64,000 bases of DNA. Source: the human T2T-CHM13v2.0 reference genome, Homo sapiens. Below are positions 7,895 to 11,149 of the stretch, piece by piece. The stretch lies in the NCBI RefSeq assembly GCF_009914755.1, contig NC_060944.1; one strand, given 5' to 3'. The notes under the pieces were generated by a model, which ran no database searches, was not told where the DNA came from, and saw nothing but the letters and a program-made list of their open reading frames with translations. Position 1 is the stretch's first letter. Each line of letters begins with the position of its first letter. Made by a program: the position numbers and the translations under genes.

Positions 7895-8193
7895 CTCTTG
7901 GAATTAGTAGGGGAGGAAAAATCACCTCCAGGTCAGAAGCTTACCTTGTGTGTCATATTTCAGACAATAGGAAGGAATTACCCCAGTTTCCCTCCAGCGG
8001 GGTGGACAGAAACTTCCCCCACCCCCCACTGGAATAGTATAGTCAGCCTTAGTCCCCCTACCTCCTGGGAAATGCATGAGTTGGATCCCTTTTCCAACGT
8101 TCTAGTTGTGTGACCTTGCTTATCTAACATCACCTCCCTGAATTCAGTTTTCTCATCTATAAAATGGAAATGATGACTCTTGCCTCTTAGGGC
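7895..8193. repeat. Donor arm of a ~299-bp local inverted duplication (partner 9442-9738)
   Basis: Hand alignment of the reverse complement to 9442-9738 gives ~20 differences in 299 nt (~93% identity), spanning unique DNA plus part of a MIR. Confidence 0.95.
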
Positions 8194-8395
8194 TGTTGTG
8201 GGGATAAAATGAGATAATGGAGAGAGAGTTCTCCGCACTGTGCCTGGCACATAGTCAGCACTCAAAAAGAGATTCATTCCTCACCCCTCACAATGCACCT
8301 ACCCCGTAATGGGGATGCACTGGGCAGGTGTGACCTGAGAGCATATGTTTGTGGTGACAGATCCAGCAAGACAATAATTGAGAGTAACCTGCGTG

Positions 8396-8444
8396 GTGTG
8401 TGTGTGTGTGCGTGTGTGTGTGTGTGTGTGTGTGTGTGTGTGTG
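8396..8444. repeat. (TG)n microsatellite
   Basis: About 24 GT units with one CG interruption. Confidence 0.95.
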
Positions 8445-9230
8445 ATATGCTGCACTCAAAACCCATCCTTTCCCACCTCTAACCCCATGGGCTCTCCACA
8501 GTGATTACAGTGATTCTAAAGAATTCACCAAAACATGTTATAAGCCTTGATTACAATGAAAAAGCGATTTTCCTAAAGTGGATCTTCCATCTGCTGGAGG
8601 TAGCCAGGCCCCAGTGACAAAGAAGAAATTCCTGGAACTCTGCAAACTCGGGGTCTGTGGCACAAAGCCCACTCCTTCCTGCAGCCAGCCTGATTGACAA
8701 GGCCCAATATCCGTCCCCTCCCGGGCCTAGATCCACAGCAGCAGCCCACAGAGCAGCCTTGGAAATGGACGATAAATGGCGCCTTTTTATTTATGAGCAC
8801 TTTCCATTATGGGCATAATACCCCCATTCTTTCCCTGGTTTGTATATAAACATCTCAAAATAGGCTTATTTTAAAAGGACCTTGGGACACAATACTTCTG
8901 TTTGAGAGAACGGCCAACGTGCCCACGCACGCTGAGAGTGGCTGGGTTGTTACTTGCTGGCCCCCTTTGCAAGAGCACTCGGCAGTCTTTTTGGGCAGAG
9001 AAAATAATTTGCTCAGGAGCCCATTTGTCCCTGGAAGTCACAGAGTGGACAAGGTCACCTGCTACTCGAGATTCACACAGTTGCCAGTCCTGGGGTTGGC
9101 AATTCTGGGACCCATGGCCACTGGGTCCATGATAATAATTCACATTTGCAGAAGTCACGTGTTTCCAAAGCCCTGGTCCCTGGCTTTTGCTCATTTACTC
9201 CTCCCCACACTTGAGTTCATAGTTAGAATT

Positions 9231-9799
9231 TTTTTTTTTTAATTGAGACAGAGTCTCACTCTGTCACCCAGGCTGGAGTGCAGTGGTACGATCTTTGCTC
9301 ACTGCAACCTCGGCCGCCTGGGTTCAATCAATTCTCCCACCTCAGCCTCCTGAGTAGCTGGGATTACAAGCATGTGCCACCACACTTGGCTAATTTTTTT
9401 ATTTTTAGTAGAGATGGGGTTTCTCAAATTTAGGCTCCACTGCCCTAAGAGGCAAGTGTCATCATTTCCATTTTATAGATAAGGAAACTGAATTCAGGGA
9501 GGTGATGTTAGATAAGCAAGGTCACACAACTAGAATGTTGGAAAAGAGATCCAAGTCATGCATCTCCCAGGAGGTAGGGGGACTAAGGCTGACTATACTA
9601 TTCCAGTGAGGGTGGGGAACGTTTCTCTCCACCCCGCTGGAAAGAAACTGGAGAATTCCTTCCTATTGTCTGAAATATGACACACAAGGTAAGCTTCTGA
9701 CCTGGAGGTGGTTTTTCCTCCCCTAACAACTCCAAGAGATCCACCCACCTCGGCCTCCCAAAGTGTTGGGATTACAGGCGTGAGCCACTGCACCCTGCC
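9231..9799 (-). mobile_element. AluS interrupted by a ~315-bp templated insertion
   Basis: Alu runs 9231-9423 (...agagatggggtttc) and resumes at 9738 (gatccacccacctcggcc...) with ~40 nt of consensus missing; TSD core gttagaatt at 9222-9230 and 9804-9812. Confidence 0.92.
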
Positions 9800-11149
9800 T
9801 GTTGTTAGAATTCTTCAGAGGAGAAAACTTTATCCCTGAAGTATTAAATACCTTAACCACCATCCCAGAAGAATTGGCAGAGGTGGAGCTTGGATATATT
9901 GTCAAAATGGTGAAAGTTAATCATTCATTTGCAAATCCACCTGAAATCACTATCCTTGATTCGCCTCAATTCTAATGTCACTACAAAGACCTCTTTACCC
10001 TCCTCCCACTGCCTCACCCCAAGAAGCCCATTGCTTTGCTGTGTTTCTCTCCTGAATGAAGCTTGGGGTCTCTTGGCCCAGGGCAAGAAGGATGGGCTGA
10101 CCCCCAGGGGCTCTGGCCAGGCCTTTACGGAGCTAAAAAGGATAGCACCTTTTCCCAATCTCAATGCAGAGAGTACAGTGATTTTTTGCTTTTGTGATCT
10201 ATTTTGAAAGACCAGGTATAATTTATATTCTATTTAGCAAAGCTTTATATGGCACTTATTGTGTGCCAGCTGTTGTTTCAAATGCATTTCAAATCTTAAC
10301 TCGTTTAATCTTCATAACACCTTTCTGAGATAGATCTTCTTATTGGGGAATTTGTAGGTGAGGAACTGAAGCAGAGATGCTTAAGTAACTGTCTCAAAGT
10401 CACACAGCCAGTATGTAGAAGAGCTAGAATTTGAACTTGGCCTGGTTCCAGAGTCTGTGCTTTCTTAACCACTACATTATATTCTTAAATGATAGTGTCT
10501 ATAATTCAGGTGATTACCCGTGGTCACTTACCAGGGGAGAAATGCCTACTTTTTGGAAATAGGAAGCACCAACATTGAATGGGCTCCTACGATATACCAG
10601 GCTTTGTTCCAAGGGCTTCAATACGCTATCTTACTACTTTTCAACAATCTTAGGAGGCAGGTGCTGTAATCTCCAGCCTACAAATGAATTAATCAAGACT
10701 AAAAGCATAAACTAGAATAGGAATTTTAGTACCCTGACTGGTAGAGGGCCACTCAACAAATCCAAATCCAATTAATTAATGTCTAAGCATTAATTAATTG
10801 CTTAGAAACTCAGAAACACAGCTGGTATGCAGTGGAGCCTAAATTTGAGCCCAGTTTTATCTGACCTTCACCTGAAAACTGACCAGGATATCCCCAGGTA
10901 ACACAATTAGACAGGTGTAGACAGTAAGTTATTTTTATAAAATTATCAATATTAACATAAATAGAAATGTATTAATATGCATTTATAATACAATATACAT
11001 TCATTAAATAAATATTAATTAAAATTGTAGCATATAGATTCACTGATTTCTAATTATTGAGGATAAGAAATTCATTTTCAATATTGCTTCATCTAACCTT
11101 AATGTTTCTTATTTTGCTTTAAAGAGTACATGTAACTTTGTCTTTTTTT

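What the first reader, a model, noticed from the sequence alone, without database searches (positions are those of the whole stretch)
7895..10849. Alu patched with two inverted templated segments copied from both flanks (multi-step template-switch fossil)
Seen: the minus-strand Alu stops at 9423 and resumes at 9738, missing ~40 nt of consensus. The insert has two parts. First, 9423-9443 (ctcaaatttaggctccactgc) is a perfect 21/21 reverse complement of 10829-10849, 1.4 kb downstream. Second, 9442-9738 is the reverse complement of 7895-8193, upstream, with ~20 differences in 299 nt. The junctions overlap by c, gc and g. The Alu TSD is intact. Established: serial short templated inserts with microhomology are the signature of FoSTeS/MMBIR or polymerase-theta-mediated repair. 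Inference: one germline event with three switches. The ~7% arm divergence suggests it is old and possibly close to the Alu's own insertion, so capture during retrotransposition is an alternative.
Basis: partly seen in the sequence, partly recalled or inferred. Interest (0 to 1): 0.8.

Follow-up and report, generated by a model that had tools for sequence, protein, structure and literature searches.

The report
Alu patched with inverted flank copies
An old Alu repeat on human chromosome 20 had about 41 bases replaced by a 316-base patch copied backwards from two spots about 1 kb away on either side, a clean but not unprecedented fossil of error-prone DNA repair or replication.

Summary
A minus-strand Alu with a perfect 9-nt target-site duplication lacks 41 consensus positions. 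In their place sits a patch. Positions 9423-9443 are a 21/21 reverse complement of 10829-10849. Positions 9442-9738 are the reverse complement of 7895-8193, with 18 mismatches and 2 one-base gaps. Both matches are locus-specific: each sequence has only these two copies in the whole assembly, so the dispersed-repeat (MIR) objection fails. Junction overlaps are 1, 2 and 1 nt.

New here: both tracts were read from the same (+) strand and in genomic order. The patch therefore equals one copying run that skipped 8194-10828. With the Alu removed, the skipped interval is centred on the integration site to within 12 nt.

Best reading (about 0.6): one germline event after Alu insertion, in which a break or stalled fork inside the Alu was repaired by template-switching synthesis of the MMBIR/FoSTeS kind. 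Capture during retrotransposition stays open (about 0.2). Internal clocks place the patch at roughly 0.4-0.9 of the Alu's age and lean only weakly towards a later event.

Primate orthologues, the decisive test, were out of reach. This is a well-preserved, unusually long-range member of a known class.

The parts
7895..8193 (+). Donor 1 (left flank), template of the long inverted tract. Its right third (about 8102 onward) belongs to an old MIR-like interspersed repeat that continues past 8193.
   Evidence: Other genomic copies of the repeat align across 8193 (query 13-180 of 8090-8290), so this locus is the original and the Alu-borne copy is the truncated one.
9222..9230 (.). Left copy of the target-site duplication GTTAGAATT
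   Evidence: 9 of 9 identical to 9804-9812.
9229..9423 (-). Alu 3' part with its A-tail, read as 12 T on the + strand at 9229-9240. It covers local-consensus positions 100-290.
   Evidence: Sub-threshold Metazoa_SRP match on the minus strand at 9243-9390 (60 bits).
9423..9443 (+). Patch tract 1: 21-nt reverse complement of 10829-10849
9442..9738 (+). Patch tract 2: 297-nt reverse complement of 7895-8193
9738..9800 (-). Alu 5' part. Of its 63 nt, 58 align to local-consensus positions 1-58.
   Evidence: Metazoa_SRP match on the minus strand at 9703-9798 (30 bits).
9804..9812 (.). Right copy of the target-site duplication
10829..10849 (+). Donor 2 (right flank), template of the 21-nt tract
   Evidence: The context 10760-10920 is single-copy in the assembly at E <= 0.001.

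Best explanation
The patch comes from one germline event that happened after the Alu had integrated normally.

A double-strand break or collapsed fork arose inside the Alu, and 41 nt were lost. A free 3' end was then extended by template-switching synthesis. It primed with 1 nt of overlap on the + strand about 1.1-1.4 kb to the right and copied 21 nt (10849 down to 10829). It moved with a GC overlap to the same strand about 1.2 kb to the left and copied 299 nt (8193 down to 7895). It was then joined back to the other Alu end with a 1-nt overlap. (The mirror-image version, with the other strand synthesised from the other end, gives the same product.)

This is the MMBIR/FoSTeS type of repair, or a hybrid of microhomology-primed synthesis and end joining. 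The product is a neutral fossil: a 300-bp inverted repeat with a 1.24-kb spacer.

Shown by the sequence: the structure, the donors, the copying polarity, the order of the tracts, and that the event is old. Inferred: the initiating lesion, the polymerases, and the timing relative to Alu insertion.
For: 1. Both tracts are copies of specific local donors and not of repeats.

2. A single Alu is interrupted. The pieces are collinear and in the same orientation, with a perfect 9-nt TSD and 41 consensus positions replaced.

3. A small deletion plus templated inverted insert plus 1-2-nt junction overlaps is the described scar of such repair:
- Template-switch mutations up to 318 bp have been reported (PMC9435742, passages).
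- Fold-back synthesis followed by end joining with a median 2-bp overlap has been demonstrated at yeast breaks (PMC11724301, sections 15 and 22).

4. One event suffices. At the arms' divergence, a 21-nt tract has a 0.27 chance of showing no change.

5. Clocks:
- Arms: 16 non-CpG differences over 594 lineage-sites, 2.7% per lineage.
- Alu: 6 (private only) to 13 (all) non-CpG differences in about 209 sites.
- CpG decay: 17 of 20 consensus CpGs are decayed in the Alu. In the arms, 1 of 4 recognisable CpG lineage-sites is decayed.
- The Bayes factor for 'later, at a uniform time' over 'at insertion' is 1.05 to 36.6, depending on how the Alu differences are counted.

6. Among 226 de novo Alu insertions recovered in culture, the 8 atypical ones lacked TSDs. 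In the passages I read, none is described as keeping its hallmarks while carrying an internal flank-derived patch (PMC3415434).
Against: - The clock evidence is weak. With only the 6 clearly private Alu changes, the non-CpG ratio of patch age to Alu age is 0.94, and equality is not rejected (p = 0.81). The CpG argument rests on two sites and assumes equal decay rates. Error-prone synthesis could also have added differences at the time of the event.
- Overlaps of 1, 2 and 1 nt are shorter than typical MMBIR junctions (2-12 bp in 80% of junctions, average 3.7).
- Donors 1.0-1.5 kb away are outside the ranges those surveys searched (100 bp, 250 bp), so commonness at this range is unknown.
- With the Alu removed, the two donors sit 1028 nt and 1016-1036 nt from the integration site. 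Measured from the break edges inside the Alu, the distances are 1230 and 1091 nt. If the tighter symmetry about the integration site is meaningful, it favours an event at integration.
- No orthologue or polymorphism data were available.
Confidence: 0.6

Rival explanations
1. The patch was made during Alu integration (target-primed reverse transcription).

The + strand is the first-strand cDNA strand: T-run, then antisense Alu. After copying the Alu RNA down to about consensus position 100, the extending 3' end left the RNA. It copied 21 nt and then 299 nt of + strand DNA exposed on the two sides of the ORF2p-made break, returned to the Alu RNA 41 nt further on, and finished the 5' end. The ends then joined with a normal TSD.
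For: - The direction of copying in the patch is the direction of first-strand synthesis (inference).
- Arm divergence per lineage (2.7%) is compatible with the Alu's own private divergence (2.9-3.8%), a ratio of 0.7-0.94.
- With the Alu removed, the donors are mirror-symmetric about the integration site: 1028 nt against 1016-1036 nt. The chance value is 0.5-1.2% before discounting for post-hoc choice of reference points.
Against: - It requires leaving an RNA template internally and returning to the same RNA 41 nt on. The reported cases are attributed to processing of the reciprocal end before ligation, that is at the insertion's edge and not inside it. Figs S9/S10 of that preprint were not available to me.
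- The full-length Alu 5' end and perfect TSD are the outcome of an undisturbed integration.
- CpG decay (17 of 20 in the Alu against 1 of 4 lineage-sites in the arms) and the count of all 13 non-CpG Alu differences favour a younger patch.
- In the passages read, none of the 226 de novo Alu inserts is described with such a structure.
- The target site reads AATT/CT, or TCTT/CA if the TSD is extended. Either is a weak match to the TTTT/AA preference quoted.
Confidence: 0.22
2. A pre-formed DNA fragment was captured at a break in the Alu and ligated in, with no in-situ copying by the broken end. The fragment could be a displaced flap or a nascent strand that already carried the 8193|10829 skip.
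For: - Read on the minus strand, the patch is plain + sense sequence in genomic order (7895-8193, then 10829-10849), as a single nascent or displaced strand with one internal skip would be.
- Insertion of displaced or extrachromosomal single-stranded pieces at breaks, some already rearranged by template switching, is proposed for yeast (PMC11724301, Discussion).
- Cleaved flaps are proposed as a source during L1 activity (PMC11702581, passages).
Against: - It needs an additional molecule and an additional step.
- All three junctions show at least 1 nt of overlap, as expected of primed synthesis, though this is weak evidence.
- Nothing in the sequence distinguishes this reading from the best explanation.
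Confidence: 0.08
3. Two separate events occurred: the 297-nt tract first, and a 21-nt templated insertion later at its edge, or the reverse.
For: The 21-nt tract is identical to its donor while the long tract differs at 6% of positions.
Against: - A 21-nt tract stays unchanged with probability 0.27 at that divergence.
- Two independent inverted local insertions abutting with a 2-nt overlap at the same broken Alu would be a large coincidence.
Confidence: 0.05
4. Assembly artefact or chance similarity.
For: None found.
Against: - The arms differ at 20 positions spread along their length. A collapsed or chimeric assembly would give near-identical copies (inference).
- The matches are far beyond chance.
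- Read-level data were not available to me.
Confidence: 0.02

Closest known systems
Complex microhomology-mediated templated insertions (MMB-TI; MMBIR/FoSTeS signature) in the human germline (Osia et al. 2021, PMC8421209; passages read)
   Same: An inverted copy of nearby sequence is inserted at a small deletion. There is more than one template in a single event, short overlaps at the junctions, and fixation as a germline variant without a larger rearrangement.
   Different: That survey looked for templates within 100 bp and inserts up to read length. Here the templates lie 1.0-1.5 kb away on both sides, and one tract is 297 nt. The overlaps (1, 2, 1 nt) are at or below the low end of the reported 2-12 bp.
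Short-range template-switch mutations, four-point model (Loytynoja & Goldman 2017, PMC5453318; Loytynoja 2022, PMC9435742; passages read)
   Same: The 1->4 fragment (41 nt of Alu) is replaced by the reverse complement of a nearby 2->3 fragment. The longest reported event is 318 bp, close to this one.
   Different: [quoted passage not shown] The 2022 filter discarded switch distances over 250 bp. This event has two successive tracts at kilobase range.
Local fold-back inversions at double-strand breaks: Pol delta synthesis plus end joining (Yu et al. 2024, PMC11724301; abstract, sections 15 and 22 read)
   Same: A resected 3' tail primes on the same strand at a microhomology and copies it backwards. 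The displaced product is then joined to the other end with 0-5 bp of overlap.
   Different: Those yeast events are mostly under 14 bp, up to about 150 bp, with loops of tens of nt, and use one side of the break. Here the loop would be about 1.2 kb. The observed order (21-mer next to the left Alu piece, long tract next to the right piece) cannot come from one cis fold-back per end, so at least one tract was copied from across the break or from a sister molecule (reasoning).
[quoted passage not shown] 2024 preprint, PMC11702581; section 7 and passages read)
   Same: A retro-element insertion carries copies of nearby genomic DNA. Kilobase-scale 5' resection and self-annealing of the extended end are invoked.
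   Different: Those events are attributed to processing of the reciprocal end before ligation. Here the extra DNA lies inside the Alu, with 61-63 nt of correct Alu 5' end and a perfect TSD beyond it. The supplementary figures that show those structures were not available to me.

Membership tests
Alu SINE inserted by L1 machinery | 7SL-derived dimeric sequence | tested here: met
   The two pieces align to positions 1-58 and 100-290 of a consensus of 101 Alus. There are two minus-strand Metazoa_SRP matches, both below the gathering score (60 and 30 bits). The AluS-like subfamily call rests on recalled diagnostic bases only. No curated repeat library was available.
Alu SINE inserted by L1 machinery | A-tail and target-site duplication | tested here: met
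   12 T on the + strand at 9229-9240. The TSD GTTAGAATT matches 9 of 9.
Alu SINE inserted by L1 machinery | Target resembling the L1 endonuclease site TTTT/AA (motif as quoted in PMC3415434) | tested here: inconclusive
   The site reads AATT/CT, or TCTT/CA if the TSD extends into the T-run. This is a weak resemblance.
Template-switch mutation, four-point model | The fragment between points 1 and 4 is replaced by the reverse complement of a nearby fragment | tested here: met
Template-switch mutation, four-point model | Single switch-and-return at short range | tested here: not met
   Two successive tracts, from donors 1.2-1.5 kb and 1.1-1.4 kb away. The model excludes such cases.
MMBIR/FoSTeS templated insertion | Inverted copy of a nearby template, possibly several templates in series | tested here: met
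MMBIR/FoSTeS templated insertion | Microhomology at every junction (2-12 bp in 80% of junctions) | tested here: inconclusive
   Overlaps are 1, 2 and 1 nt. Allowing one mismatch or a 1-nt gap, junction 2 matches at 4 of 5 positions and junction 3 at 4 of 5. No extended homeology exists between the lost Alu segment and any donor context (fraction of shuffles scoring at least as high: 0.32-0.74).
MMBIR/FoSTeS templated insertion | Origin at a collapsed fork or one-ended break, dependence on BIR polymerases | not testable with these tools
   Needs genetics or an experimental system.
Pol theta-mediated end joining with templated insert | Short templated inserts, typically up to about 30 nt (PMC11724301, Discussion) | tested here: not met
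   The 21-nt tract fits. The 297-nt tract does not.
L1 twin priming (5' inversion) | The inverted segment is the 5' part of the retro-element itself | tested here: not met
   Both Alu pieces are in the same orientation and collinear. The inverted DNA is flank-derived.
Nested repeat insertion (ordinary interrupted Alu) | The interrupting DNA is another dispersed repeat with its own hallmarks | tested here: not met
   The insert is single-copy apart from its donors. In a crude scan of 56 collinear split-Alu candidates in 294.5 kb, this was the only one whose extra DNA gave a single flank match above 92% on one side plus a second exact match on the other. The other 55 either gave several flank hits at 72-91%, the nested-Alu pattern, or gave none. 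I did not inspect them one by one.

The most novel reading that the evidence does not exclude
The patch is a single copying run along the + strand that jumped over 2,635 nt, and the geometry of that jump is a record of the intermediate.

With the Alu removed, the jump leaves the right flank 1016 nt from the integration site and lands 1028 nt from it on the left. This would mean the event happened at the ORF2p-made break during Alu integration. The two sides would have been processed or held symmetrically, by about 1 kb of 5' resection on each end or by a loop anchored at the break. The extending cDNA end would have copied the strand exposed at both boundaries before returning to the Alu RNA.

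That would make this a natural fossil of a TPRT intermediate with bidirectional kilobase-scale end processing.
Probability: 0.13. Interest if true: 0.6.

Novelty: new member of a known kind. Interest (0 to 1): 0.35.

Why it matters
Clean, fully resolved multi-template inverted insertions at kilobase range are seldom visible in surveys. The two surveys I read restricted their searches to templates within 100-250 bp. This fossil shows that the germline has fixed such an event with donors on both sides of the lesion.

It also gives a concrete locus where a simple comparative test can separate repair after insertion from capture during retrotransposition. That test is whether an uninterrupted Alu sits at the orthologous site in other catarrhines.

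The collinear, near-symmetric geometry is a testable lead for how broken ends or forks find templates. It is a single case, however. It has no sign of function and does not overturn any current model.

Tried and rejected
- Dispersed-repeat origin of either tract: rejected.
- Spliced-RNA template for the 8193|10829 join: rejected by reading. There is no GT...AG or GC...AG pair that would give the observed junction.
- Homeology between the lost 41 nt of Alu and the donor contexts as a guide for the switches: none found. The local score was 7 against a shuffle mean of 6.2, and the fraction of shuffles scoring at least as high was 0.32-0.74.
- Gene-conversion tracts between the arms: the 18 mismatches are spread along the arm, with the longest clean run about 59 nt, which is unremarkable.
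- Strand-biased deamination during the event: donor C/copy T occurs 7 times against donor T/copy C 2 times. This is not significant (my binomial estimate is p of about 0.18, computed by no call) and only three sites could be polarised, so I dropped it.
- Selection for an RNA hairpin: 10 of 13 transitions keep G-U pairing on the minus-strand reading (my count; one-sided p of about 0.05). I did not pursue this, and there is no transcript evidence.
- Rfam scan of 6000-12000: only Alu/7SL-related matches.
- Background survey: in 294.5 kb (the window, 200 kb of chromosome 19 and ten small loci), this is the only low-copy local inverted pair of 100 nt or more among 187 local pairs.
- Literature searches (listings and the passages named above) turned up no description of this locus, nor of an Alu with an internal patch copied from both flanks. 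This does not show that none exists.
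Full report
**Observation**

The region reads as the first-stage reader described. On the + strand the order is:
- TSD copy GTTAGAATT (9222-9230)
- a run of 12 T
- antisense Alu up to 9423
- 316 nt that are not Alu
- antisense Alu from 9738 to about 9800
- the second TSD copy (9804-9812; 9 of 9 identical)

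I collected 101 full-length Alus from the window, 200 kb of chromosome 19 and ten small loci. Against their majority consensus, the 5' piece covers positions 1-58 and the 3' piece covers 100-290, so 41 positions are missing. Rfam gives two separate minus-strand matches to the 7SL model either side of the patch, at 9243-9390 (60 bits) and 9703-9798 (30 bits). Both are below the gathering score of 70, as expected of Alu pieces.

**The two tracts**

Positions 9423-9443 are an exact reverse complement of 10829-10849.
- None of 100 shuffles of the window produced any match at up to 3 mismatches.
- In the whole assembly the 21-mer has two exact copies, both here, plus one site at 1 mismatch and three at 2 mismatches. 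The reversed-pattern control gave one.

Positions 9442-9738 are the reverse complement of 7895-8193.
- There are 297 aligned positions, 18 mismatches (13 transitions, 5 transversions) and two one-base gaps. The K2P distance is 0.064.
- A looser local alignment runs on to 7892-8196 and 9439-9742, because of partial matches beyond the junctions.
- Genome-wide, the 302-nt query has only these two full-length copies. The six other hits cover only query positions 208-284 at 77-82%. That part belongs to an old interspersed repeat (MIR-like, name recalled).

Other copies of that repeat align straight across position 8193 (query 13-180 of 8090-8290). The left locus is therefore the intact original, and the copy in the Alu is the truncated one. 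The context of the 21-mer donor (10760-10920) has no other match in the assembly at E <= 0.001.

That condition is not met. One caveat: the genome search scores only its best candidates, so copy counts are lower bounds.

**Junctions**
- Alu to tract 1: the two parents share one C (9423).
- Tract 1 to tract 2: they share GC (9442-9443), and 4 of 5 positions if one mismatch is allowed.
- Tract 2 to Alu: they share one G (9738), followed by a TCC/ATCC near-match.

These overlaps are real but small; random joins give about two-thirds of a nucleotide on average by my own estimate. The lost 41 nt of Alu show no extended similarity to any donor context.

Both tracts are inverted. Read on the minus strand, the patch is + sense sequence in genomic order: 7895-8193, then 10829-10849. 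The patch therefore equals one copying run along the + strand (or its mirror image on the minus strand) that skipped 8194-10828, an interval that contains the Alu itself.

Two consequences follow by reasoning.
- One simple fold-back per broken end would place the long tract next to the left Alu piece and the 21-mer next to the right piece. That is the opposite of what is seen. At least one tract was therefore copied from across the lesion or from a sister molecule.
- GC, the middle overlap, is self-complementary. Two separately extended 3' ends could also have annealed there.

The geometry is nearly symmetric.
- With the Alu removed, 1028 nt separate 8193 from the TSD, and 1016-1036 nt separate the TSD from the 21-mer donor.
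- Two donors with uniformly placed distances within 2-5 kb would agree this well in 0.5-1.2% of trials. I chose the reference points after seeing the data, so the real significance is several-fold weaker.
- Measured from the break edges inside the Alu, the distances are 1230 and 1091 nt.

**Age**

Arms:
- There are 16 non-CpG differences over 594 lineage-sites, which is 2.7% per lineage.
- Of the two recognisable ancestral CpGs, one is intact in both arms and one is decayed in the copy only.

Alu, against the local consensus:
- It differs at 31 of 249 covered positions. Thirteen of these are non-CpG, out of about 209 non-CpG sites.
- Five of the 13 are variants shared by 18-42% of other Alus. 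These are probably subfamily or hidden-CpG positions.
- Two more lie at the A-tail boundary. That leaves 6 clearly private changes.
- 17 of 20 covered consensus CpGs are decayed.

Comparison:
- The ratio of patch age to Alu age comes out at 0.43-0.94 from non-CpG sites, and lower from CpG sites.
- A rough Bayes factor for 'later, at a uniform time' against 'at insertion' ranges from 1.05 to 36.6, depending on which Alu differences are counted.

So the event is old, and later than the Alu is mildly favoured but not shown. Using recalled rates of about 1e-9 per site per year, the age is of the order of 25 million years. The 21-nt tract being unchanged fits a single event (probability 0.27).

**Mechanism**

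The best-supported reading is a break or collapsed fork inside an already integrated Alu, repaired by serial microhomology-primed synthesis from the flanks and joined back with loss of 41 nt.

Supporting literature:
- Germline complex templated insertions from up to five templates occur in normal human genomes (PMC8421209, passages).
- Template-switch mutations up to 318 bp have been called in human haplotypes (PMC9435742, passages).
- Fold-back synthesis by Pol delta followed by end joining with a median 2-bp overlap has been shown at yeast breaks. The same paper's Discussion says Pol theta alone makes inserts typically up to about 30 nt (PMC11724301, sections 15 and 22).

On that basis the 297-nt tract argues for a processive polymerase. 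The 21-nt tract would fit either.

The four-point model explicitly leaves out long-range and serial switches (PMC5453318, passages). This event lies outside what those scans looked for.

**The main rival: capture during retrotransposition**

In favour:
- The + strand is the first-strand cDNA strand, and the patch was copied in that direction.
- The arm divergence is compatible with the Alu's private divergence.
- The symmetry is tighter about the integration site than about the internal break.
- Experimental L1 expression yields insertions with extra sequence templated from nearby genomic DNA, kilobase-scale 5' resection and self-annealing of the extended end (PMC11702581, section 7 and passages; supplementary Figs S9/S10 not seen).

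Against:
- The extending end would have to leave the RNA internally and return to the same RNA 41 nt further on.
- The reported cases are assigned to the edge of the insertion, not its interior.
- The Alu's 5' end and TSD are those of an undisturbed integration.
- In the passages I read, the 8 atypical events among 226 de novo Alu inserts all lacked TSDs (PMC3415434).

I give the post-insertion reading about 0.6 and the integration reading about 0.2. Capture of a pre-formed fragment, two events, and artefact share the rest.

**How unusual is it**

It is also the only one of 56 collinear split-Alu candidates whose extra DNA is a near-identical single match to its own flank (the other 55 were not inspected individually). 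This sample includes the ascertained window and is small. A larger survey could not be run.

**Verdict**

The interpretation as a one-event, three-junction templated patch is supported. The particular pathway and the timing are not settled.

It is a well-preserved, unusually long-range member of a known class of mutation, with no sign of function. The arms could pair as a roughly 300-bp duplex, about -530 to -548 kcal/mol as RNA, but there is no evidence of transcription.

Noticed in passing
window 6241-6545 (+): Full-length match to the metazoan SRP (7SL) RNA model at 156 bits, well above the gathering score of 70. It corresponds to the annotated pseudogene RN7SL666P and lies 1.3 kb upstream of donor 1.
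   Followed up: no
window 8388-8445: An imperfect (GT)n microsatellite lies between donor 1 and the Alu, inside the interval the copying run skipped. Such tracts can stall forks, but no link to the event was tested.
   Followed up: no
window 214-262 and 1536-1584: A low-copy inverted pair of 49 nt at 91.8% identity, 1.27 kb apart. It could be a small template-switch fossil or two fragments of a rare old repeat.
   Followed up: no
window 31156-31289 and 32049-32182; 59177-59223 and 60030-60076: Low-copy direct local repeats: 135 nt at 87.4% and 47 nt at 91.5%.
   Followed up: no
window 7895-8193 vs 9442-9738: The transitions between the arms are lopsided: donor C/copy T 7 times, donor T/copy C 2, donor A/copy G 3, donor G/copy A 1. 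Five of the seven C-to-T sites follow a C. The imbalance is not significant. It would fit deamination of an exposed + strand template if it were real.
   Followed up: partly
window 9265-9324, 11539-11598, 9341-9392: Sub-threshold matches to the mir-3135 and mir-1268 precursor models inside Alu sequence. This is the usual cross-match of Alu-derived miRNA families, not evidence of a miRNA gene.
   Followed up: no
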